Part shown: positions 4,725 to 15,911 of the stretch, one piece after another
How the letters are laid out: each line of letters begins with the position of its first letter
Numbering within the stretch: the first letter of the stretch is position 1
From: Elusimicrobiota bacterium
GTDB lineage: Bacteria; Elusimicrobiota; Elusimicrobia; UBA1565; UBA9628
Length of the DNA stretch: 64,000 nt
NCBI GenBank assembly: GCA_035533295.1
Contig: DATLUA010000002.1
Span: forward strand, 11,323-75,322
Direction: 5' to 3'
Translations under genes and position numbers: made by a program
The notes under the pieces: model-generated
What the model saw: the letters and a program-made list of their open reading frames with translations, nothing else
The model's database searches: none
What the model was told of the DNA's origin: nothing

Positions 4725-5124
4725 GGGGCAAGTTCTCTTGCAGATAGGCGACGATGATGGAAAGCGGCGTTCCCGGGCCGAAAACCTGGTGAACGCCTTT
4801 TTTCTTGAGCGCCGGCACGTCCTCATCCGGTATGATGCCGCCGCCGAAAAGAAGCACGCCCTTCAGGCCTTTTTTCTTGAGCAGCCCGGCCACTTGCGGA
4901 AAAAGCGTCATGTGCGCGCCGGAGAGGAGCGAAAGCCCCACGGCGTCCACGTCCTCCTGCAGCGCGGCCTCCGCGATCATTTCGGGCGTCTGGCGGATGC
5001 CCGTGTAAATCACCTCGAAGCCCGCGTCGCGCAGCGCCCGCACGATGACCTTGGCGCCGCGGTCGTGGCCGTCCAACCCGGGCTTGGCGATCAAGACCCG
5101 ATAGGTTTTTTTCCCCGTCACCAT
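4708..5124 (-). CDS. Methylmalonyl-CoA mutase B12-binding subunit (stand-alone C-terminal cobalamin-binding domain)
   Basis: [37 protein letters not shown] is a classic DxHxxG B12-binding domain. Confidence 0.85.
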
Positions 5125-6203
5125 ACGCCCTCCTCGTTCGCCGCGATTTCGACAAAAGCCTTGGCCACGCGCGGATCGAAGCGCGCGCCCGAGCCCTGCT
5201 TGGCCAGCGCTACGGCGCGGTCGCGCACGCTTTCTCCGTCCGTGCCGCCGCTCATGCGCATCTCTTCGACCGCCTCGACCAGCCCCAGGATGCGGCCGCC
5301 CAGCGAAATGTCCTCGCCTTTCAGGCCCGCCGGGAATCCCCCGCCGTCGAAGCGTTCATGATGTTCCCGGATGGCGGGCAGGGCCCCCGAGAGAATCTTG
5401 ATGCCTTCGAGCATGCGCACCGAAAGCAGCGGATGGCTCTCCTCCGAAACGTTGGTCATCCCCATTTCGCCCAAAAGCCTGATGTTGCGGAAAGCCAAGT
5501 AGCCCACGTCGTGGAGCAGGCCCGCGTAGTAGAGCATCCGGTAGTCGTGCTCCCCGATGTCCAAGGCGCGGCCGATAGCGCAGCACAGCCGGGCCGCGCG
5601 GCCGGGGTGCCCCTGCATCCCGGGTTTGGAGGTCTCGATGAGCGACACCAGCAGCTCTAGGATATGGGAAAAGAAGTTCTTTTGATCCGAAATCATGCGG
5701 GTATTGGTGATGGCCACCGAGGCCAAGCCCGCCAGGCTTTCCAGGAGCTTCGCGTCGGTCTCGGAGTATTTTCCCCGGCGCTTGTTCAAGACCTCGATGA
5801 CGCCGACCAAGTCCCCCTTGAAGAACATAGGCACGCACAAGACCGAGCGCGTCTCGAAGCCCGAGGCCTTGTCGAAGCGGCCCGTGAAGCGCGCGTCGTT
5901 CTTCACGTCGTTGACCATTTCGATTTTTCGGTTCTGGGCCACCCAGCCGGCGATACCCTGGCCCAGGGGCAGCGTCATGGTCCGAATCGCGCGGGCCTTG
6001 TCTCCCGAGGCCACCCGGAAAAAGAGGTTTTTCCCGTCGTCGGTCAGGAGCATGATGGCGCTGGCCTCGGAGTCGAGGAGCTTTTCCGCCTCCGAGCCGA
6101 TTTGCCGCAGCAAGGAATCCAAATCCATGCTGGAATTGAAGCTCCCGGCGATGGAGAAAAGCTCCAGCGCCGTCCGCGTGTCGAGCGAAAGCTCCGCGGC
6201 CAT
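5118..6203 (-). CDS. GAF domain + HD-GYP-type phosphohydrolase (motif variant [11 protein letters not shown], i.e. GFP instead of GYP)
   Basis: N-terminal GAF-like region (..[21 protein letters not shown]..), then H..HD..HHE.FDG.GFP. Confidence 0.75.
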
Positions 6204-6204
6204 G

Positions 6205-7987
6205 CTATTCGACCCCCCCGAGGACTTCCCGCACCGTGGTCAGGCCCATGAGCACCTTGTGGAGGCCGTCCTGCACGATGGGCCGCATGCCTTCCTTGAG
6301 CGCCTGGTGGCGGATGGGGTCGGCCGCGATTTCCTTAAGGCAGAGCGCGCGCAGAGAGTCGGACATCGCCAAAAGCTCGTGCAGGCCGATGCGGCCGCGG
6401 AAGGCCAGCTTCTTGCAGGCCTCGCAGCCTTCGGCCGAGGGCCCGTAAATCTTCGCGTCGGATTTGATCTCCACGCCGTTTTCCGCGAAGACTTGCTTCT
6501 CCTCGGGCGTCGGATCGTGCGGAACCTTGCACTTCTCGCAGAGCTTGCGCGAGAGCCTCTGCGCCATGACGGCCTTCAAGGTGGTCGCCACCATGTAGGC
6601 GGGAATTCCCATCTCCACCAGGCGCGAGATGGCCGAGGGCGCGTCATTGGTGTGGATGGTGGAGAAAACCAAGTGGCCGGTCATGGCCGCCTCCATGGAG
6701 ATGTGCGCGGTCTCGCGGTCGCGGATTTCGCCGACCATGATGACGTCGGGGTCCAGGCGCAAAAACGAGCGCAGCGCGGTCGCGAAGTCGAAGAACTTGT
6801 CCTCGCCGAGCTTCAAGTCCGGATTGACGGGAACCTGGATGATGCCGTCCAAGTTGTATTCGACCGGATTCTCCGCGGTCAGAATTTTGATGTCCGGCCG
6901 GTTGATGTGGTTCAAGGCGGCGTAGAGCGTCGTGGATTTACCGGAGCCCGTCGGGCCGCAGAGCAGGATGAGGCCGAAGTTCTTCTTGCCGCCGATGCCC
7001 TTCAAGAGGCTCAAGAACTTTTCCTGAGTGTCCGGCAAAAAACCCATTTTGCCGATGTCCACCTGCGCGGCCTTGCGGTCCAATATACGCATGACGCAGG
7101 ACTCGCCGTAGACCGCGGGGACGATTTCGACGCGGAACTCGATGGGGTTTCCCTGCGCCAGAATCTGGATGCGCCCCGACTGCGGGATGCGGCGCTCGGT
7201 GATGTTCATCGAGTTGGTCATGATCTTAATCTTGGCCGCGATGGCGTTGCGGTAGCCCCAGGGAACGTTGAAGGGGCCCGGCACCAACTGGCCGTCGACC
7301 CGGTAGCGGACCAGAACCCGGGAGTTGCGCCCCGTGGGATCCTCTAAGGGCTCGATGTGGATGTCGGAGGCCTTCATGGACAGCGCGGTCAGGATGATGG
7401 CGTTGACGAGCTTTTCCACCTCGGGAGCGGAAGCGTCGACTTCCGTGATGTCGGTCTTAACCTGATCCGACAAGACATCGACGCCGGTCGACTGCCCCAA
7501 ATCGTCCTTTTTGGCGACTTCCTCGATGAGCCGGCTCACGGTCGCCGCGCCGCTGCGCCCGTAGACGTTGTCCAAGGCGTCGCTGATGTCCTGGGGCACG
7601 GCCAGCACGCCCTGGACCTGCAGGCCCGTGCGCAGCTCGATGTCCTCGCAGACGAAAAAATCCTTAGGATCGGCCATGGCCACGTAGAGGAGGTTTTCCT
7701 CCTTGGCGAACGGAACGGCCCCGTGGCGCCGGGCCGCGGATTCGGGGATGATCCGCGCGGCCTCAAAATCCATCTCCACCTTGGTCAGGTCCACGGCCTG
7801 GACCTTCCATTCCTCGGACAGCGCCGCCAGCATGTCGTGCTTGGACGCGGCGCCCGCGTCGACGATGGCCTGGATGAAAGGCTTTTTGTCCTTCCTGGCG
7901 GCCTCTTCGGCCTCGCGAATTTTCTCCGCGGGAACCAAGCCCTTGTCCAAGAGAACCTCGGCCGCGGTCCTGCGCCGCGCAAGCCCT

Positions 7988-7998
<11 letters not shown>
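6205..7998 (-). CDS. GspE/PilB-family secretion/pilus-assembly ATPase with N-terminal T2SE_Nter domain
   Basis: LLCGPTGSGKSTTLYAAL Walker A, VGEIRD, HLVFSTIHTNDA and a C-terminal Cys cluster CEKC..CEAC. Confidence 0.85.
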
Positions 7999-9603
<1,605 letters not shown>

Positions 9604-9607
<4 letters not shown>

Positions 9608-9945
9608 TGGCGGAACTCCAATTTTTCCCCTTTGGCGACGGCGCCGGACGAGGCGCCGGCGGCCAGTTCCAGCACGCTGTGGGCGCGAAAAACCCAGGGC
9701 GAGAGGCGCCACGGCTTTAAGTTTTCCAGCACTCGCACGACGCCAAAGTTAGAATCGAGAAACACCGCGTCGATGGCGAATTTCATGAAAAACGTGTGGA
9801 TCATGGGGCAGGGCACAATCCAGAGGCCCTCGGAACGGCCCAAGGAGTTCCGGCCCAGAAGGCCGCGCGAGCGCGTCCGCGGCGTGTCCGCCTGCGAGAC
9901 TTGCGACGCCACCACGGCGTTCCGGCTCACGTTGAACGCGATCAC
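9604..9945 (-). CDS. DUF192 (COG1430) family protein
   Basis: ..RGLLGR..EGL.IVPCPMIHTFFMKFAIDAVFLD..L.PWR..VLELAAG... A probable GTG start at 9945 overlaps the ksgA stop (GTGA); the longer track ORF would overlap ksgA by 120 nt. Confidence 0.6.
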
Positions 9946-10766
9946 GATTTTTCGATGTCCTCCGGCGCGGCTTTGCTTTTTAAAATAGCAAATTTCTCCG
10001 CGAGGAGGGCGTAAGCTTCCGGCGGGATGTCCTGCGCGCGGCACGATGGCGAAAGGCCGCATTCGGATAGCACGCGCGCCGCCATGTTCTTGGGAATTGC
10101 GAAGGCCTGGGCGATGGGCGTCTGCGCCATTTTTCGCCGCTGGCTAAAGGCCGCCTTGGCCATGCGGAAAAACAGCGCCTGCCGCGCGGCATCCAGCATC
10201 GGCTTGGGCCGCCTGACCAGGCGCACCACCGAGGACTGCACCTGGGGCGGCGGCGAAAAAGAGCGCGGCCCCACGTCGAAAAGAATCTCGGCTTGGGCGT
10301 AAAGCCACGCCGACAGAGTCAAAACCCCGTAATCGGCCGTCCCGGGCTTGGCCGCGATGCGCAGCGCGACCTCCTTCTGGAACATCAAAACCGCCTCGTC
10401 CCAAGGCTCCCAGGGCAGGATTTTCTGCAAAATGGGCGACGCGACCGAATAGGGCAGATTGGCCGCGATTCGAAACGGCCCCGCCGAGGCCGGGCCCAGC
10501 TCGGCGAGGTTGAGCTTCAGGAAATCCGCGCGGACGAGGCGGAAATCGGCCCGCCCGGAAAACTCCTCTTCAAGCGCCGCGGCCAGGCGCTCGTCCATTT
10601 CCACCGCCGTGAGCTCGGCGCCGGCGGCCAGGAAAGCGCGCGTAAGCATTCCCCGGCCGGGACCTATTTCCAAAACGCGCCGGCCTTTCCCGATTTGAGC
10701 GCAGGCTGCCATGCGGTCGCGGACCCGCTCGTCCGAAAGGAAATGCTGCCCGAGCCTGGCCGGCAT
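9942..10766 (-). CDS. rsmA: 16S rRNA (adenine1518/1519-N6)-dimethyltransferase RsmA/KsgA
   Basis: GQHFL.D..V..RM......VLEIGPG.G.LT...NLPY motifs. The start was set at the Met at 10766, 7 nt after the murC stop. Confidence 0.85.
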   Translation of the reverse strand: MPARLGQHFLSDERVRDRMAACAQIGKGRRVLEIGPGRGMLTRAFLAAGAELTAVEMDERLAAALEEEFSGRADFRLVRADFLKLNLAELGPASAGPFRIAANLPYSVASPILQKILPWEPWDEAVLMFQKEVALRIAAKPGTADYGVLTLSAWLYAQAEILFDVGPRSFSPPPQVQSSVVRLVRRPKPMLDAARQALFFRMAKAAFSQRRKMAQTPIAQAFAIPKNMAARVLSECGLSPSCRAQDIPPEAYALLAEKFAILKSKAAPEDIEKS

Positions 10767-10773
10767 CAGCGGC

Positions 10774-12195
10774 CTAGGCCGGACCCGGATGGGCCGCGGC
10801 CAGCCGGCGCAGGAGCTCCTCGCCAACGGCGCGCACGTCTCCCGCGCCCAAGGTCAGCACCGTATCGCCGCTTTTGATGCTTTCCAAAACCGGCGCGACG
10901 CCCGGGAAGGCCGCGCAGTCAATCTTGCTGCGGACCAAGGAATCGAGAATCAGCTTCGAGCTGACTCCCGGCAGGGGTTTTTCGCCGGCCGGATAGATGT
11001 CCGTCACGTAAACGAAATCGGCGCCTTTAAACGCCGGGCCGAAATGCCCGGCCAGAAGCTTGGTGCGCGAAAAGCGGTGCGGCTGGAAAATCACCACGAG
11101 CCTTTCCCGGCGGGCGCGGCGGGATTTAGCGCCATTCCGGAGAGCGGCCAGCGTCGCCGCGATTTCGGTCGGATGGTGGCCGTAGTCGTCTACGAACTCG
11201 GCGTCCCCGACCGAGCCGAGGCGATCCAAGCGCCGGCCCACGCCGGAAAATTCCCCCAGCCCCCGGGCCAAATCCCGCGGCTCGAACCCCAAATAAGCGC
11301 CGGCGGCCATGGCCGCTAAGGCATTCAGGACATTATGCCGGCCCGGAACCCTGAGGGACACTTCGGCGGCTTTGCGGCCGCCATGAAGCGCCTCGAATCT
11401 TGAACCGCCTCGAAACAACCGCACATCGCGCGCGCGCCAGCCGGCCTTGCGATCAAAGCCGTAAGTCGAGACCGGCCGCTCGACGCGCGGCACGATAGAA
11501 GCCGCGCCGGCGTCGTCTTGGCAAATCACGGCGCAGCCGTAGAAGGGCAGGCGGTGCAGATAGTCCAGGAACGCCCGCTTCAACTGGTCCATCGATTTGT
11601 GGAAATCGAGATGATCGTCGTCGATGTTGGTCACCACGGCGGCCAGGGGCGATAGGTGCACGAATGAGCCGTCCGATTCGTCCGCCTCCACCACCATATA
11701 GTCTCCCATTCCCATGCCGGCCGCGGGACGGACGTTCTTGAGCCGCCCGCCGACGATCAGGGTCGGGTCGGCTCCGGCCGCCGCCAGCGCCAACGCGGCC
11801 ATGGAGGTGGCGGTGGTCTTGCCGTGGCTTCCCGCGACGGCCAGGGTCTTCTTGAAGCGGCAGAGCTCGGCCAGCATCTGGGCTCGCGGGATGACGGGAA
11901 TGCCCTCCCGGCGCGCGCGGACCAGCTCGGGGTTGTCCGCCGGCACCGCGGTGCTCGCGACCACGACCTGCGCGCCGCGGACGTGCGCGGCCCTATGGCC
12001 CAGCCAAACCTTGATTCCCTCCGCGGCCAGCCGCTTAAAGGCCTCGCCGCGCTTGGCGTCCGAGCCCGACACCTCGTAGCCCAGGCTGTGCAGGACCTCG
12101 GCGATGCCGCTCATGCCCGAGCCGCCGATGCCCACGAAGTGCACGCGCCGGATAAACGGCCGCATCATGTCCTCTAGGCGGGCCTTATCCGCCAT
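10774..12195 (-). CDS. murC: UDP-N-acetylmuramate--L-alanine ligase MurC
   Basis: VHFVGIGGSGMSGIAEVL..GSHGKTTATSM..DDYGHHPTEI. The start was set at the internal Met MADKARLEDMMRPF. Confidence 0.9.
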   Translation of the reverse strand: MADKARLEDMMRPFIRRVHFVGIGGSGMSGIAEVLHSLGYEVSGSDAKRGEAFKRLAAEGIKVWLGHRAAHVRGAQVVVASTAVPADNPELVRARREGIPVIPRAQMLAELCRFKKTLAVAGSHGKTTATSMAALALAAAGADPTLIVGGRLKNVRPAAGMGMGDYMVVEADESDGSFVHLSPLAAVVTNIDDDHLDFHKSMDQLKRAFLDYLHRLPFYGCAVICQDDAGAASIVPRVERPVSTYGFDRKAGWRARDVRLFRGGSRFEALHGGRKAAEVSLRVPGRHNVLNALAAMAAGAYLGFEPRDLARGLGEFSGVGRRLDRLGSVGDAEFVDDYGHHPTEIAATLAALRNGAKSRRARRERLVVIFQPHRFSRTKLLAGHFGPAFKGADFVYVTDIYPAGEKPLPGVSSKLILDSLVRSKIDCAAFPGVAPVLESIKSGDTVLTLGAGDVRAVGEELLRRLAAAHPGPA

Positions 12196-14575
12196 GGCCG
12201 CCTCCACGAGGCGAAGCCTGCACGGCGGCGGGACGCAGGAGCCAATTGAGGCCTTGGCGCGCCTCGCGGTTTTTAGGATCCAACCGAAGAACCCGGCGGT
12301 AGGTTTCCTCGGCGCCTTTTTCATCCCCGGTGATGACATAAGCCACGCCCAAGCCCAAGAGAGCCGATTCGTTCTGGGAATCCAAGGAAACCGCGCGCTT
12401 GAAAGCGTCGAGCGCCCGGCGGCCCTGGCCCAAATCCGCGCGGGCCAGCCCTTCGGCCACCCACCAGTCCGTCTGATCCGGATGGTTGGGCGGTTCGCCT
12501 ATCTGCGGCAGCGTCTCCTGCACCAAGGCCATCCAGCCCACGCCCACAATCCAGAGCCCCATGTCGTTGCCGACCTGCCGCGGCTCGTAGAGCACGTTGG
12601 AGTTGGAAGGATTTTCGCCCGAGCCAGCGCCTCCGCCGCCGGACTGCGCATCGGCGGACCGCGAACCGTCGGAAAGTTCCTGGAGCTTGTTGAAGGTCAG
12701 GTTCATGCCCAGGTGCACGTCGCTTCCATCGGGCGCCTCGGCCACGGTCTTCTGCAAATCCTGCAAAATTCCCGCTATTTGGCGCCGGCGCTCCTCGGGG
12801 CCAGCCGCGCGGATTTGGTAGCTGCGGTTGACGGCCTGGATTCCCTGGGAGGGCCCGTTGACGGCCATCTGCAGCGCGCGCTTCAACTGAGAGGAGCCGA
12901 CTTCCTGGGAAGACGGCTCGACGAGCTGCGGCTTGGGCATGAACACCGCCTGGACCTGCATGATGGCGTCTTGATCCAGGGGAATGCGCTCCAGGTTGCG
13001 CGCGAACACGCTCAAGGGATCATCCGCCGAAAGCTTGGGCATCGCGGCGCCGCCCGCTGACGGAGCCGGGGGCTCGGCGGCCCCGGATGCCGCGCCGGAA
13101 GGCGCGTTGGCGCCCCCGCTCGCGGCGGATTTCCCGGAATAGGCGACGGAAAGCTGCAGGCCCGCGCCGCCTTCCCGCGGCGTCAGGTGGAACGCGCCCG
13201 CGAAAATCTTGCGCGCCTGGGCGAAGCGGCCCTCGAAGAGCAGCACGCGCCCCAAGCGCAGGCGGGCCACCGAATCCCGGTTCTTTAGCTCCAAGGCCTT
13301 CTCAAAGCTCGCGAGAGCCGACTTCAAATCCCCGTCGCTTTCCTGGACCGCGCCCATCTCCAGCCATGCGTCCTCGAACTGCGGATTTAAATCCAGCGAC
13401 TTGCGGAACGCCGCCTCCGCGTCCTGGCTGCGGCCCAGAAGATAATAGAGCGCGCCCAGTTGAAAACGGTAGAGAGGCTCAGTGGGCGCGAGCGCCACCG
13501 CGCGGCGCAAATGTTCGAGCGCGTCGGAAATTTTCCCCAGGCTTTCCTCCAAGGACGCCAAATCCATGAACGAATCCGGGCGGTTCGGGTCGAGCTTGAT
13601 CGCCTTGCGGAACGCGTCGTAGGCTTCCTGATCGCGATCCTCGTAGGCCAGGGAAATGCCCCGAAGGATGTGGAGCTGGGCGCTGTTGGGGTTTAGCTTG
13701 AGGCTGATTTGGTATTCCTTGAGCGATTCATCCACCTCGCCCAGCCAATAATACGCCGCGCCCAGCATCATGTGCGCGTCCGCGTTCTTGGGATCCGCGG
13801 CCACCGCCCGGGAGAACCTCATCGCCGCCGTCGCGTAATGATGGTTTGAAAAATCGTCATAGCCCTGGGAGATATCCTGATTGGACTGCGCCGCCATCAT
13901 CTGATCCCAAACAGTCTGAGGCGGCTGCTCGGTCGGAAGCGCCCGCGACGGCGGCGCGCCCAAGCACAGCAGCACGCCGCCCAAGGCCAGGGCTTGCTTG
14001 ACGCGCGGCAAAATCGCCGCGAGCGCGCGGGCCCGGTGGCTGATGCGGTTTTTTTCCGCCAGGCCCATCTCGGCCAGCGTTTTTTTCTCGTCCGGCGCGT
14101 AGAACACGGGGTCGTAGCCGAAGCCTTCGATGCCACGCGGCTCAATCGTGATTTCACCCTCGAGACGGCCTTCCTCGCAGATGACCGCGCCGTCCGGCCC
14201 GGCCAAGGCCATGACGGTGCGAAAAACCGCGCGCCGAGGCGCCGGAACGCCGCGCAGCTCGGAGAGAAGCTTCTTGATGTTGGCCGCGAAATCGCAACCC
14301 GGCCCCGCGTAGCGCGCCGAATAAACGCCGGGCCGCCCGCCCAAGGCCGCGACCTCCAAGCCCGTGTCGTCGGCCAGGGCCCAGTCCCCGCAAAAACGCG
14401 CGGCCGTTTGCGCCTTCTTGCGCGCGTTGCCTTCGATGGTGGGCTGGTCCTCGTCTATTTCGGGAAAACCGGGGCAATCCTTGGGCAGGGCCAAAGCGAC
14501 GCCCAGCCCCCGCAGGGCTTCCGAAATCTCGCGGACCTTATGGGAATTTCCCGTGGCCAGAAAAAGGCGCCTCAT
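12185..14575 (-). CDS. Fusion protein: RdgB/Ham1 non-canonical purine NTP pyrophosphatase (N-terminal 200 aa) + signal-peptide-like hydrophobic segment + about 560-aa TPR-repeat region
   Basis: N-term LFLATGNSHKVREI..GFGYDPVF..NRISHRARAL is a complete RdgB. There is no stop before ALALGGVLLCLGAPPSRALP, which is followed by many TPR motifs (A..YY.LG..DEA...Y..ALKLNP). Confidence 0.7.
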   Translation of the reverse strand: MRRLFLATGNSHKVREISEALRGLGVALALPKDCPGFPEIDEDQPTIEGNARKKAQTAARFCGDWALADDTGLEVAALGGRPGVYSARYAGPGCDFAANIKKLLSELRGVPAPRRAVFRTVMALAGPDGAVICEEGRLEGEITIEPRGIEGFGYDPVFYAPDEKKTLAEMGLAEKNRISHRARALAAILPRVKQALALGGVLLCLGAPPSRALPTEQPPQTVWDQMMAAQSNQDISQGYDDFSNHHYATAAMRFSRAVAADPKNADAHMMLGAAYYWLGEVDESLKEYQISLKLNPNSAQLHILRGISLAYEDRDQEAYDAFRKAIKLDPNRPDSFMDLASLEESLGKISDALEHLRRAVALAPTEPLYRFQLGALYYLLGRSQDAEAAFRKSLDLNPQFEDAWLEMGAVQESDGDLKSALASFEKALELKNRDSVARLRLGRVLLFEGRFAQARKIFAGAFHLTPREGGAGLQLSVAYSGKSAASGGANAPSGAASGAAEPPAPSAGGAAMPKLSADDPLSVFARNLERIPLDQDAIMQVQAVFMPKPQLVEPSSQEVGSSQLKRALQMAVNGPSQGIQAVNRSYQIRAAGPEERRRQIAGILQDLQKTVAEAPDGSDVHLGMNLTFNKLQELSDGSRSADAQSGGGGAGSGENPSNSNVLYEPRQVGNDMGLWIVGVGWMALVQETLPQIGEPPNHPDQTDWWVAEGLARADLGQGRRALDAFKRAVSLDSQNESALLGLGVAYVITGDEKGAEETYRRVLRLDPKNREARQGLNWLLRPAAVQASPRGGGHGG

Positions 14576-14619: not shown

Positions 14620-14928
14620 ATGTCGATGATGACGGCTTTGCGCTGGCGCTGTTGCCTCGCCATTCTGGCTCTGGGGTTGGCCGGGTGCGCGACGACGGGC
14701 GCCCAGGATATCAACCTCTCCGACGCGGCGCTCCAAGCCCGGGTCGAGGAGCGTCTGGCCGCGCGCAAGGACCTGGACCTGCACTTGGTGGACATCGACG
14801 TCGTCTCGCAGGTGGTGACTCTCTCCGGACTCGTCAATTCATGGCAGACCAAACAGGAAGCCGGACGCGTCGCGGCCCGCACGCCGGGCGTCCAGGAAGT
14901 CCTCAACAATCTCCTGATCCAAGAATAG
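14620..14928 (+). CDS. BON (OsmY-like) domain lipoprotein
   Basis: Signal peptide plus lipobox LAGC, then a BON domain (DAALQARVEERLAARKDLDL..VDIDVVSQVVTLSGLVNSWQTKQEAGRVAARTPGVQEV). Confidence 0.7.
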   Translation: MSMMTALRWRCCLAILALGLAGCATTGAQDINLSDAALQARVEERLAARKDLDLHLVDIDVVSQVVTLSGLVNSWQTKQEAGRVAARTPGVQEVLNNLLIQE

Positions 14929-15911
14929 CCCGCCTTCTGGCTTGGTACGACGCGCGCAAGCGTGATTTGCCCTGGCGGCGCAAGGTCGGCCCCTACTCCG
15001 CCTGGATTTCCGAAATCATGCTCCAGCAGACGACCGTCGCGACGGTCGTCCTCAAGTTCGAGCGCTTCCTGGCCCGGTTCCCAAACATTCAAGCGCTGGC
15101 CGCCGCCTCCGAAGAGGACGTGCTGGCCGGCTGGGCGGGCTTGGGCTACTACTCGCGCGCTCGCAACCTCCTGGCCGCCGCGCGCAAAATCACGGGAGAG
15201 ATGGGCGGACGCTTTCCCTCGGACTACGAAGGAATTCTCTCCCTGCCCGGTGTGGGCCGCTACACCGCGGGCGCCATCGGCTCCATCGCCTTCGGGCTGC
15301 GCCGGCCGGTCTTGGACGGCAACGTGATGCGCGTCTTTTCCCGCTGGTTCGCCGTGCAGGACAACCTCAAGGACGCCGCGACCCAGAAAAAACTCTGGGC
15401 CATCGCTGAAAAATTGGTCCCGGCCGCGCGGCCCGGCGATTGGAACCAAGCGCTCATGGAATTGGGCGCGACCGTGTGCCTGCCGGAAAATCCAAAATGC
15501 TTCGAATGCCCCGTTTCCAGTCATTGCCTCGCCTTCTCTCGAAAAATACAGGACCGCCTTCCCGTCGTCGCGGCGCGCCGGGAAGCCGTTTCTCTGCGCT
15601 GGACCTGCCTTTGGATAGAAAAAAACGGGAAAATCATTTTATGGAAAAGATCCCAGGACGAGCGTTTCTTGAAAGGGCTTTGGGGATTTCCCGAGGCGCG
15701 CCACCTGCGCGTCAAGCCCGGCGCGCTTTTAAAGACCACCGCGCATTCCATCACGCACCACCGGATCACGGCCGAACTGCGCCGCGCCTCCGCGCCGAAA
15801 AAGATTCCCGCTCAAGCCGCCTGGATCGCCAAGGAGAAGCTCAGCCGGCTCCTGGTCTCGTCGCTCTGGATTAAACTTCTCGGAAAAAACCGCAGCGCGC
15901 CCCAACTTTAA
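14841..15911 (+). CDS. mutY: A/G-specific adenine DNA glycosylase MutY (HhH-GPD + FeS cluster + C-terminal Nudix-like domain)
   Basis: LLAWYDARKRDLPWR..PYSAWISEIMLQQTTV..LPGVGRYTAGAI..C.ENPKCFECP..C. The start is uncertain: the first in-frame ATG at 14841 overlaps the BON gene by 88 nt, and no ATG/GTG/TTG lies just before LLAWYD. Confidence 0.8.
   Translation: MADQTGSRTRRGPHAGRPGSPQQSPDPRIARLLAWYDARKRDLPWRRKVGPYSAWISEIMLQQTTVATVVLKFERFLARFPNIQALAAASEEDVLAGWAGLGYYSRARNLLAAARKITGEMGGRFPSDYEGILSLPGVGRYTAGAIGSIAFGLRRPVLDGNVMRVFSRWFAVQDNLKDAATQKKLWAIAEKLVPAARPGDWNQALMELGATVCLPENPKCFECPVSSHCLAFSRKIQDRLPVVAARREAVSLRWTCLWIEKNGKIILWKRSQDERFLKGLWGFPEARHLRVKPGALLKTTAHSITHHRITAELRRASAPKKIPAQAAWIAKEKLSRLLVSSLWIKLLGKNRSAPQL

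What the first reader, a model, noticed from the sequence alone, without database searches (positions are those of the whole stretch)
12185..14575. In-frame fusion of a complete RdgB/Ham1 pyrophosphatase to a long TPR protein with an embedded signal-peptide-like segment
RdgB normally ends at ..NRISHRARAL... Here the frame continues without a stop into PRVKQALALGGVLLCLGAPPSRA|LP.., which looks like the n-, h- and c-regions of a Sec signal peptide, and then into about 560 aa of TPR repeats. This suggests two ancestral genes (a cytoplasmic ITPase and a secreted TPR protein) were fused by loss of a stop, or that there is an internal in-frame start. A cytoplasmic NTP-cleansing enzyme fused to an export signal is functionally odd.
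Basis: partly seen in the sequence, partly recalled or inferred. Interest (0 to 1): 0.5.

Follow-up and report, generated by a model that had tools for sequence, protein, structure and literature searches.

The report
RdgB fused to an exported TPR protein
A housekeeping nucleotide-cleaning enzyme and a periplasmic repeat protein, separate genes in related bacteria, are joined into one gene across a clade of Elusimicrobiota, and the export signal of the second protein survives in the middle, where it probably still directs export and cleavage.

Summary
ORF 12185-14575 (-) encodes 796 aa: a complete RdgB/Ham1 domain (aa 1-194), a signal-peptide-like segment (aa 188-212, ILPRVKQ/ALALGGVLLCLGA/PPSRA|LP), and a 584-aa protein with two TPR blocks around a non-TPR insert.

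It is not an artefact. At least 120 protein clusters from Elusimicrobiota MAGs (47-92% identity, full length) share the architecture and the BON<-|rdgB-TPR->murC->rsmA neighbourhood.

More distant orthologs of the TPR half are separate 530-620-aa proteins. Their ordinary N-terminal signal peptide sits exactly where the internal segment lies. Several are in the same operon as a separate 204-aa rdgB. So the fusion is derived, and one member appears to have split again.

The internal segment evolves like a cleavable Sec signal peptide. Its core is variable and short (median 13 apolar residues). Position -1 is Ala in 114/120, -3 is A/S/V in 112/120, and the upstream charge is +3.3. Its hydrophobicity matches the N-terminal signals of unfused orthologs.

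No conserved internal start codon exists. Two members have no ATG/GTG/TTG there at all.

Best reading: one ORF yields a cytoplasmic RdgB and an exported TPR protein, probably separated by signal peptidase I. Cleavage is inferred, not shown. This is a new variant of a known kind, of moderate interest.

The parts
12185..14575 (-). Whole fused ORF, 796 aa plus TAA stop (12185-12187).
   Evidence: It is 100% identical to database protein P0001, seen on 3 contigs and named 'RdgB/HAM1 family ... [Elusimicrobiota bacterium]'.
13994..14575 (-). RdgB/Ham1 non-canonical purine NTP pyrophosphatase domain, aa 1-194. Predicted cytoplasmic.
13994..14038 (-). RdgB C-terminal helix (aa 180-194, HRARALAAILPRVKQ). 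It doubles as the positively charged n-region of the internal signal peptide.
   Evidence: Standalone RdgBs of relatives end ...HRARALQAILPVLKGIPA* and ...HRGRALRAILPRLKALGTLV*. The tail after SHR has a median of 17 aa in 79 standalone RdgBs. Net charge is +3.3 upstream and -0.4 downstream of the apolar stretch.
13955..13993 (-). h-region of the internal signal peptide, aa 195-207 (ALALGGVLLCLGA).
   Evidence: This is the most variable segment of the protein (2.49 bits mean entropy). The apolar run has a median of 13 aa, range 9-20. Its hydrophobicity is indistinguishable from the N-terminal signal peptides of unfused orthologs (p=0.53). AlphaFold draws it as a continuation of the RdgB C-helix (H180-205).
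13940..13954 (-). c-region, aa 208-212 (PPSRA). The predicted signal peptidase I site lies between A212 and L213, that is between nt 13940 and 13939.
   Evidence: Across 120 homologs -1 is Ala in 114 (plus 2 Gly and 2 Ser), -3 is A/S/V in 112, -4 is Pro in 80, and -2 is variable. The -1 column has 0.37 bits entropy. The model is disordered at 207-218.
12188..13939 (-). Predicted mature exported (periplasmic) protein, aa 213-796.
   Evidence: It is orthologous to standalone 530-623-aa proteins that have N-terminal signal peptides.
13880..13933 (-). Highly conserved N-terminus of the mature part, aa 215-232 (TEQPPQTVWDQMMAAQSN).
   Evidence: Mean entropy is 0.74 bits. W223, D224, M227 and Q230 are invariant or nearly so. 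The WDxxM motif is also present in all unfused orthologs.
13199..13912 (-). TPR block 1, aa 222-459 (about 7 repeats).
13058..13174 (-). Low-complexity Ala/Gly/Ser/Pro linker, aa 468-506.
   Evidence: pLDDT <50. Variable, with partial occupancy in the alignment.
12689..13018 (-). Small alpha/beta insert domain, aa 520-629. No known family.
12503..12598 (-). Conserved motif region, aa 660-691 (..YEPRQVGNDMGLWIVGVGWMALVQETLP..).
   Evidence: P665 G669 N670 D671 L674 W675 G678 W681 are invariant. The motif is also conserved in unfused orthologs.
12236..12472 (-). TPR block 2, aa 702-780.
   Evidence: Pfam TPR_8, TPR_16 and TPR_CcmH_CycH. Model helices 702-780.
10774..12195 (-). murC. The likely start is ATG 12193-12195, preceded by GGAGG at 12201-12205. 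It overlaps the end of the fused ORF by 11 nt, which suggests translational coupling.
   Evidence: The same order rdgB-TPR->murC->rsmA is seen in four homologous loci, with a 4-nt overlap in one.
9942..10826 (-). rsmA/ksgA (16S rRNA dimethyladenosine transferase), third gene of the conserved array. Its start codon is uncertain.
   Evidence: Pfam RrnaAD E 3e-49. Syntenic.
14620..14928 (+). Divergently transcribed BON-domain protein with a lipoprotein-type signal (LAG|C). It is a conserved upstream neighbour.
   Evidence: Pfam BON. Sequence. It is the neighbour.

Best explanation
The ORF is a real, lineage-wide gene fusion. An rdgB gene and a downstream gene for a Sec-exported TPR protein, both once in one operon with murC, became a single reading frame in a clade of Elusimicrobiota.

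The join lies at the natural C-terminus of RdgB. The TPR protein's start codon and own n-region are gone. RdgB's basic C-terminal helix (..ILPRVK..) now serves as the n-region. The hydrophobic core and the Ala-x-Ala cleavage site were kept.

Proposed mechanism:
1. The RdgB domain folds in the cytoplasm and stays there.
2. When the internal signal peptide emerges, it inserts into SecYEG as a hairpin, N-terminus inside.
3. The 584-aa TPR part is threaded into the periplasm.
4. Signal peptidase I cuts after A212. This releases the TPR protein and leaves RdgB with a short hydrophobic tail, which may later be trimmed or extracted.

The gene would thus behave as a two-product polyprotein, which explains how an otherwise odd fusion is tolerated.

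Shown here: the fusion, its conservation, its derived origin, homology of the segment to real N-terminal signal peptides, its signal-peptide-like evolution, intact RdgB catalytic residues, and the absence of a conserved internal start.
Inferred: export, cleavage, and the fate of the RdgB tail.

I put about 0.9 on a real fusion with a functional export signal, and about 0.6 on cleavage as well.
For: - All of the best 120 homologous clusters (47-92% identity, 94-100% coverage, 734-810 aa) carry both PF01725 and TPRs. All named ones come from Elusimicrobia/Elusimicrobiota MAGs.
- The junction alignment shows a conserved RdgB helix, a variable hydrophobic stretch, then P-A-x-A followed by a conserved mature N-terminus.
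- The apolar run has a median of 13 aa. The summed Hessa-scale dG of the best 19-mer has a median of +3.8 kcal/mol, with only 2% below 0. This does not differ from the N-terminal signal peptides of 19 unfused orthologs (3.78 vs 3.13, p=0.53).
- Charge is +3.3 upstream and -0.4 downstream.
- Unfused orthologs carry N-terminal signal peptides at the homologous position: L009-L011 in Elusimicrobiaceae, L016, and P0121-P0220.
- Operon intermediates exist: rdgB - small TPR - CsgG-like - TPR - murC (L101), rdgB - kinase-like - TPR - murC (L016), and rdgB - 47 nt - TPR (L099).
- In an NJ tree the unfused proteins form a basal grade and the fused ones a crown clade.
- P0121 is unfused but 71-73% identical to fused members. 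It has a regenerated N-terminal signal peptide ending in the same ..ARA|GKTEPP site.
- RdgB catalytic residues are invariant and the fold matches Ham1 structures.
- There is no conserved internal start codon or SD, while murC has GGAGG.
Against: - No experiment and no dedicated predictor (SignalP, DeepTMHMM) was available. Export and cleavage are inferred from sequence patterns only.
- The hydrophobicity scale was recalled from memory and applied as a plain sum.
- A conserved K/R at +2 after the predicted site (113/120) is not typical of efficiently exported Sec substrates. Residues +2 to +8 are so conserved that the -1 Ala could partly reflect constraints on the mature protein.
- Moderately hydrophobic signals are usually handled post-translationally in model bacteria. 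How well an internal one after a folded 190-aa domain is recognised in Elusimicrobiota is unknown.
- The tree is neighbour-joining without support values.
- L099 is a single 3.9-kb contig.
Confidence: 0.6

Rival explanations
1. Uncleaved signal-anchor. The hydrophobic segment stays in the inner membrane as a single transmembrane helix. The product is a bitopic protein with RdgB on the cytoplasmic face and the TPR domain in the periplasm. The tethering itself might be the selected function.
For: The topology signals (positive-inside charge, one hydrophobic segment) fit this model as well as the cleavage model. AlphaFold draws one continuous helix 180-205. There is no linker between RdgB and the segment. 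The fusion has been kept across a clade at about 50% divergence. Bitopic proteins with a periplasmic TPR domain are common (general knowledge).
Against: The apolar run (median 13, range 9-20) and the summed dG (median +3.8 kcal/mol, 2% below 0) are too weak for a stable membrane span. They have not shifted relative to cleavable signals of unfused orthologs. An anchor has no reason to conserve Pro at -4, a small residue at -3 and Ala at -1 while the core varies freely. The member that split again works with an ordinary N-terminal signal and a separate RdgB.
Confidence: 0.25
2. Two proteins by internal initiation. The TPR pre-protein is translated from an in-frame start near L189 (TTG 14009-14011), giving MPRVKQALALGG.. 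as a normal N-terminal signal peptide. The long ORF would then be a nested-gene arrangement.
For: The window has an in-frame TTG at the right place, conserved in L001 and L003. A product starting there would look like a textbook signal peptide. The rdgB start itself lacks an obvious SD, so absence of an SD is weak evidence.
Against: The codon is TTA in L002 and ATT in L004-L012. L004 and L006 have no ATG/GTG/TTG anywhere between SHR and the mature N-terminus. Only 39 of 115 members have a Met there, at varying positions. The I/L/M residues occupy hydrophobic positions of RdgB's own C-helix, which are also present in standalone RdgBs. No SD-like sequence precedes the TTG, whereas murC has GGAGG.
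Confidence: 0.05
3. The export signal is a dead relic. The whole 796-aa protein is cytoplasmic and the hydrophobic segment is just a linker.
For: None directly. Internal signal peptides are rarely documented in bacteria.
Against: A relic would not keep hydrophobicity, positive-inside charge and the -3/-1 pattern in 120 clusters at about 50% divergence while its sequence turns over. In unfused loci the orthologs are secreted proteins that are sometimes encoded next to a CsgG-like lipoprotein.
Confidence: 0.05
4. Assembly or sequencing artefact, or a pseudogene: a missed stop or frameshift at the junction of two separate genes.
For: The window comes from a metagenome-assembled genome, and no reads were available to check.
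Against: An identical protein is seen on 3 contigs from several sources. The 90% and 82% identical homologs, and more than 100 further clusters from independent assemblies, keep the same frame. Both halves are under purifying selection.
Confidence: 0.01

Closest known systems
RdgB/Ham1/ITPA non-canonical purine NTP pyrophosphatases (PF01725, TIGR00042; E. coli RdgB, PDB 1K7K/2PYU)
   Different: Known RdgBs are soluble cytoplasmic proteins of about 200 aa. Here the C-terminal helix runs directly into a signal-peptide core and a 584-aa exported protein.
Standalone orthologs of the TPR half (P0121-P0220; Elusimicrobium/Elusimicrobiaceae L009-L011; L016)
   Same: They have the same two TPR blocks, insert domain, WDxxM and GNDMGLW motifs, and the same position upstream of murC and/or rsmA. 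The signal peptide with A-x-A lies immediately before the conserved N-terminus.
   Different: Their signal peptide is N-terminal with its own Met and n-region. rdgB is a separate gene upstream or is not nearby. None of these proteins has a described function.
Bradyrhizobium japonicum FbcH, the cytochrome b-c1 precursor (Thony-Meyer et al. 1991, PNAS; recalled from memory, not retrieved)
   Same: One bacterial ORF encodes two proteins separated by an internal signal peptide. The downstream part is exported and released by signal-peptidase-type cleavage.
   Different: In FbcH the upstream part is a polytopic membrane protein of the same complex. Here it is a soluble enzyme with no evident functional link to the exported part. 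Cleavage is demonstrated for FbcH and only inferred here.
Bitopic N-in/C-out proteins with a periplasmic TPR domain (for example anti-sigma-factor-like proteins)
   Same: The overall layout is the same: cytoplasmic domain, one hydrophobic segment, periplasmic TPR domain.
   Different: Those proteins have a genuine transmembrane helix of about 20 residues and no conserved A-x-A site. Here the segment is signal-peptide-like in length and hydrophobicity.
Streptomyces Rieske protein with an internal Tat signal peptide (mentioned in PMC13186574)
   Same: An internal signal peptide directs export of a C-terminal domain.
   Different: That case uses the Tat pathway in a polytopic membrane protein. 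Here no twin-arginine motif is conserved (0/115 strict) and the upstream part is soluble.

Membership tests
RdgB/Ham1 (PF01725 / TIGR00042) | Profile score above the curated cutoff | tested here: met
   PF01725 scores 206.7 bits against 22.5. TIGR00042 scores 162.9 against 145.35. The narrower equivalog NF011397 scores 209 against 234, below its cutoff.
RdgB/Ham1 (PF01725 / TIGR00042) | Signature residues: N-terminal T/N-x-x-K, E-D metal site, DD(T/S)G, FGYDP, K-N-x-x-SHR | tested here: met
   E42 D43 K53 D70 F152 Y154 D155 K175 H180 R181 are invariant. T8 N10 K13 D69 G72 are at least 90% conserved in 120 homologs. The mapping of these residues to catalytic roles rests on general knowledge of the family.
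RdgB/Ham1 (PF01725 / TIGR00042) | Ham1 fold | tested here: met
RdgB/Ham1 (PF01725 / TIGR00042) | dITP/XTP pyrophosphatase activity | not testable with these tools
   This needs an enzyme assay.
Sec-type (signal peptidase I) signal peptide | Tripartite n/h/c structure with a basic n-region and a 7-15-residue hydrophobic core | tested here: met
   ILPRVKQ / ALALGGVLLCLGA / PPSRA. The apolar run has a median of 13 aa and the upstream net charge is +3.3.
Sec-type (signal peptidase I) signal peptide | Small uncharged residues at -3 and -1, with a helix breaker around -4 to -6 | tested here: met
   -1 is A/G/S in 118/120, -3 is A/S/V in 112/120, and -4 is Pro in 80/120.
Sec-type (signal peptidase I) signal peptide | Located at the N-terminus of the pre-protein | tested here: not met
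   It starts about 188 residues into the ORF, and no conserved internal start would make it N-terminal.
Sec-type (signal peptidase I) signal peptide | Descent from, or positional homology with, a bona fide signal peptide | tested here: met
   Unfused orthologs have N-terminal signal peptides ending immediately before the same conserved WDxxM N-terminus.
Sec-type (signal peptidase I) signal peptide | Actual export and cleavage | not testable with these tools
   No experiment was possible, and no SignalP-type predictor was available.
Transmembrane signal-anchor (bitopic membrane protein) | Hydrophobic stretch long and hydrophobic enough to span the membrane (about 18-20 residues or more, predicted insertion dG at or below 0) | tested here: not met
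   The apolar run has a median of 13 aa (maximum 20). The best 19-mer has a median of +3.8 kcal/mol, with 2% below 0 (simplified scale recalled from memory).
Lipoprotein (signal peptidase II) signal peptide | Lipobox [LVI][ASTVI][GAS]C | tested here: not met
   Present in 4/115 members. The Cys in the window (C204) is not conserved, with 23% column occupancy.
Tat signal peptide | Twin-arginine motif S/T-R-R-x-F-L-K | tested here: not met
   0/115 match the strict motif and 11/115 match a loose RR pattern.
TPR repeat proteins | Multiple TPR profile matches and helical-hairpin repeats | tested here: met
Bacterial polyprotein with an internal signal peptide (FbcH type) | One ORF encodes two proteins that exist as separate genes elsewhere, joined by a signal peptide with a cleavage motif | tested here: met
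Bacterial polyprotein with an internal signal peptide (FbcH type) | Demonstrated proteolytic separation of the two products | not testable with these tools
   This needs protein-level data.

The most novel reading that the evidence does not exclude
The fusion is selected for its own sake. RdgB would be deliberately delivered to, or held at, the inner face of the membrane, next to the translocon and the murC-encoded cell-wall precursor pathway. It would then be released only by signal peptidase plus intramembrane proteolysis. That would couple nucleotide-pool sanitation or RdgB dosage one-to-one with export of an envelope TPR factor. If so, this would be a natural Sec-processed bacterial polyprotein with a soluble enzyme as the 'pre' part.
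Probability: 0.12. Interest if true: 0.65.

Novelty: new variant of a known kind. Interest (0 to 1): 0.42.

Why it matters
It shows that a Sec signal peptide can survive being moved from the N-terminus to the interior of a protein, behind a folded cytoplasmic enzyme, and still evolve under the usual signal-peptide constraints for a long time. If cleavage is confirmed, this would be a rare natural bacterial polyprotein resolved by the housekeeping signal peptidase. It comes with a series of evolutionary stages: separated genes, adjacent genes, the fusion, and a member that split again.

In practice, these proteins are annotated simply as 'RdgB/HAM1 pyrophosphatase' or 'tetratricopeptide repeat protein'. 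Both names hide half of the product and its predicted dual location. The case also warns that Rosetta-stone reasoning (fused, therefore functionally linked) may fail when the join is a cleavable signal.

Tried and rejected
- The metagenome scan with the family alignment chose the generic RdgB motif GFGYDP as its pattern. It returned almost only unrelated standalone rdgB genes. These were useful only as a sample of RdgB tail lengths and for L016.
- Specific TPR subfamilies (PilW, PrsT, MamA, NlpI, BcsC and others) were all far below their NCBIfam cutoffs and were rejected as identities.
- Literature searches for this fusion, for Elusimicrobia RdgB, and for bacterial internal signal peptides or FbcH found nothing on this protein and did not retrieve the FbcH paper. 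That precedent is cited from memory.
- There is no second rdgB in the 64-kb window. This does not tell whether the genome has another copy.
- Lipoprotein and Tat signals were considered and rejected.
- The internal-start hypothesis was tested at the DNA level and rejected as a conserved feature.

Full report
**1. What is in the window**

One search lists a single ORF at 12185..14575 on the minus strand (ATG start, 796 aa, TAA stop).
- Pfam places a full-length Ham1p_like domain at aa 4-189 (E 3.8e-61) and many TPR families further on.
- The NCBIfam RdgB/HAM1 equivalog TIGR00042 is above its cutoff (162.9 against 145.35).
- The DNA at the junction reads through ...AAC CGC ATC AGC CAC CGG GCC CGC GCG CTC GCG GCG ATT TTG CCG CGC GTC AAG CAA GCC CTG GCC TTG GGC GGC GTG CTG CTG TGC TTG GGC GCG CCG CCG TCG CGG GCG CTT CCG ACC... 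with no stop.

**2. It is not an artefact**

A search of the 5.8-billion-protein collection with the whole protein returned an identical protein seen on three contigs, then homologs at 90%, 82% and 68% identity, then more than 100 further clusters at 47-55% identity. All of the best 120 are 734-810 aa, cover 94-100% of the query and carry both PF01725 and TPR domains. All named ones come from Elusimicrobia/Elusimicrobiota metagenome-assembled genomes.

Four homologous loci share the window's gene order: a divergent BON-domain gene (often with mutY beyond it), then rdgB-TPR, murC and rsmA/ksgA. In the window murC starts at ATG 12193-12195 behind a GGAGG, overlapping the last codons of the fused ORF.

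**3. Anatomy of the junction**

Three results come from the alignment of 120 homologs.

(b) 'HRxxALxxILPRLK' is RdgB's own C-terminal helix. In 79 unrelated standalone RdgBs the tail after SHR has a median of 17 aa. A standalone RdgB of a relative ends ...SHRARALQAILPVLKGIPA*. In the window the hydrophobic stretch starts 14 residues after SHR. The join is therefore at the natural C-terminus with no linker, and RdgB's basic residues act as the n-region.

(c) The next segment behaves like a cleavable signal peptide.
- It is the most variable part of the protein (2.49 bits per column) but always apolar.
- It is followed by Pro at -4 (80/120), A/S/V at -3 (112/120), a variable -2, and Ala at -1 (114/120; 0.37 bits).
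- A very conserved mature N-terminus follows (xKTEPGQETIWDQIMA in the main clade, LPTEQPPQTVWDQMMA in the window's subclade).
- Net charge is +3.3 in the 12 residues upstream and -0.4 downstream, which predicts N-in/C-out.
- The longest apolar run has a median of 13 residues.
- A simple sum of the Hessa biological hydrophobicity scale (values recalled from memory) over the best 19-mer has a median of +3.8 kcal/mol, with 2% of members below zero. That is signal-peptide-like and not transmembrane-like.
- No lipobox (4/115) and no twin-arginine motif (0/115 strict) is conserved.

**4. Orthologs: separate or fused?**

Both states exist, and they order into a history.
- In gut Elusimicrobium/Elusimicrobiaceae MAGs the TPR half is a standalone 563-574-aa protein. 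It begins MTKKIGLFACVLLFLAAGFSHA|RFPF...SQTVWDQMM, is followed by rsmA, and has no rdgB upstream.
- An exhaustive HMMER search of 1.84 billion cluster representatives with aa 196-796 found the fused family as one 50% cluster. It also found at least 20 full-length unfused orthologs (530-623 aa, 30-50% identity). Nearly all begin with a short hydrophobic N-terminal segment just before the WDxxM motif, and most of these end in a recognisable A-x-A-type site. One (P0128) starts without such a segment.
- Their contexts show intermediates:
  - L101: BON<-|rdgB (204 aa) - small TPR - CsgG-like lipoprotein - TPR - murC.
  - L016: rdgB (204 aa) - kinase-like - TPR - murC.
  - L100: small TPR - CsgG-like - TPR - NTPase - murC.
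  - L099: BON<-|rdgB (205 aa) - 47 nt - TPR - next gene.
- In a neighbour-joining tree of the TPR halves, the unfused proteins form the basal grade and the 120 fused proteins the crown. The tree has no support values.
- The L099 protein (P0121) is nested inside the fused clade. It is 71-73% identical to fused members and 49% identical to the best other unfused protein.
- The L099 RdgB ends ...HRGRALRAILPRLKALGTLV*, which is the fused-type junction plus the first residues of an h-region. Its TPR gene, in another frame, starts with a new Met and a longer hydrophobic core but ends in the same ..VAARA|GKTEPP site.
- I read L099 as a secondary fission. This needs read-level confirmation, because L099 is one 3.9-kb contig. 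If real, it is a natural experiment: the two halves work as separate proteins, and the A-x-A site is the functional boundary.
- The hydrophobicity of the internal segments does not differ from that of the N-terminal signals of unfused orthologs (dG19 3.78 vs 3.13, p=0.53; apolar run 13 vs 12, p=0.03). There has been no drift towards a membrane anchor since the fusion.

**5. Internal start?**

At the DNA level the window's in-frame TTG (L189, 14009-14011) is shared by its two closest relatives. It is TTA in L002 and ATT in five more distant members. L004 and L006 have no ATG, GTG or TTG at all between SHR and the mature N-terminus. Only 39/115 members have any Met in that stretch.

The I/L/M residues sit at hydrophobic positions of the RdgB helix that standalone RdgBs also have. 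No purine-rich SD precedes the window's TTG, whereas murC has GGAGG. The rdgB start itself lacks an SD, so that argument is weak on its own. A conserved internal initiation site is therefore not supported. In at least some members the TPR part can only be made as part of the fusion.

**6. Mechanism proposed**

RdgB folds and stays in the cytoplasm. The internal signal inserts into the Sec translocon with its basic end inside. The TPR part is translocated, and signal peptidase I cuts after A212. This yields an exported protein of about 63 kDa and an RdgB of about 23 kDa carrying a short hydrophobic tail. The fate of that tail (extraction, or trimming by signal-peptide peptidases) is speculative.

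Under this model the fusion is close to neutral for both functions, which explains its persistence despite no evident functional link. The main rival is an uncleaved anchor that tethers RdgB to the membrane. It fits the topology signals, but not the short weak core or the conserved -4/-3/-1 pattern. Neither model can be decided without protein-level data.

**7. The exported half**

Its function remains unknown. It has two TPR blocks (aa 222-459 and 702-780), low-complexity linkers, a small alpha/beta insert (aa 520-629) and an invariant PRQVGNDMGLW..GW motif. No specific family, PDB relative or informative fold match was found.

Two context features suggest a periplasmic envelope-associated scaffold: its constant position just upstream of murC/rsmA, and its association with a CsgG-like lipoprotein and a small TPR protein in unfused loci. 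This is inference from context only.

**8. Comparison with what is known**

- The N-terminal half is a bona fide RdgB/Ham1 member.
- The junction meets every sequence criterion of a Sec/SPase I signal peptide except N-terminal position.
- Functionally, the closest precedent I know is the Bradyrhizobium japonicum FbcH cytochrome b-c1 precursor, where an internal signal peptide separates two products of one ORF. This is from memory; the literature tool did not retrieve it.
- An internal Tat signal in the Streptomyces Rieske protein is mentioned in PMC13186574.
- No paper on an RdgB-TPR fusion or on Elusimicrobia RdgB was found.
- Database records name these proteins either 'RdgB/HAM1...' or 'tetratricopeptide repeat protein' without comment.

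**9. Verdict**

The fusion interpretation is supported and extended, and the internal-start alternative is rejected as a conserved feature. This is a lineage-specific variant of known things (domain fusion, internal signal peptide), documented here with unusually clear evolutionary intermediates. Interest is moderate.

Noticed in passing
L099 637-1254 and 1302-3044: One relative nested inside the fused clade (71-73% identical to fused members) has rdgB and the TPR gene separate again. They are 47 nt apart and in different frames. The RdgB still ends with the fused-type junction (..ILPRLKALGTLV*), and the TPR gene has a new Met and a longer signal core. This looks like a secondary gene fission, but it rests on one 3.9-kb contig.
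   Followed up: partly
L101 3833-5001; L100 243-1318: In unfused loci the large TPR gene is preceded by a small (141-174 aa) secreted TPR protein and a CsgG-like lipoprotein (PF03783, with a lipobox). This may be a three-gene envelope module. Whether fused genomes keep the other two genes elsewhere is unknown.
   Followed up: no
window 12185-12205: The murC start (ATG 12193-12195, SD GGAGG 12201-12205) lies inside the last codons of the fused ORF, an 11-nt overlap that suggests translational coupling. The mechanical ORF list puts the murC start 48 codons too far upstream, at 12339.
   Followed up: partly
window 14620-14928 (+) and 14841-15911 (+): The divergent neighbour is a small BON-domain protein with a lipoprotein signal (..LALGLAG|C..), followed by a mutY-like HhH-GPD glycosylase. 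The first plausible Met of the glycosylase (14841) would overlap the BON gene by about 88 nt. The BON gene, and often mutY, are conserved next to rdgB in both fused and unfused relatives, so two DNA-fidelity genes (mutY and rdgB) sit back to back.
   Followed up: partly
window 12605-12688 and 13058-13174 (-): There are two low-complexity Gly/Ala/Ser/Pro stretches inside the exported protein (aa 468-506 and 630-657). Both have pLDDT below 50 and variable length, and the second has about 50% alignment occupancy. They flank the alpha/beta insert and probably act as flexible tethers.
   Followed up: no
window 5118-9712 (-): Downstream on the same strand lie a methylmalonyl-CoA mutase large-subunit gene, a T2SSE/PilB-type secretion ATPase with an MshEN domain, and a GAF-HD (HD-GYP-like) protein. 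I did not examine them further. The mutase is also near the fusion in the P0076 locus.
   Followed up: no
L096 8322-8864; L100 3105-3635: In the basal fused member P0110 and in the unfused L100, a small NTPase_1 (PF03266) gene sits between the TPR gene and murC. It is absent from the window and most fused loci.
   Followed up: no
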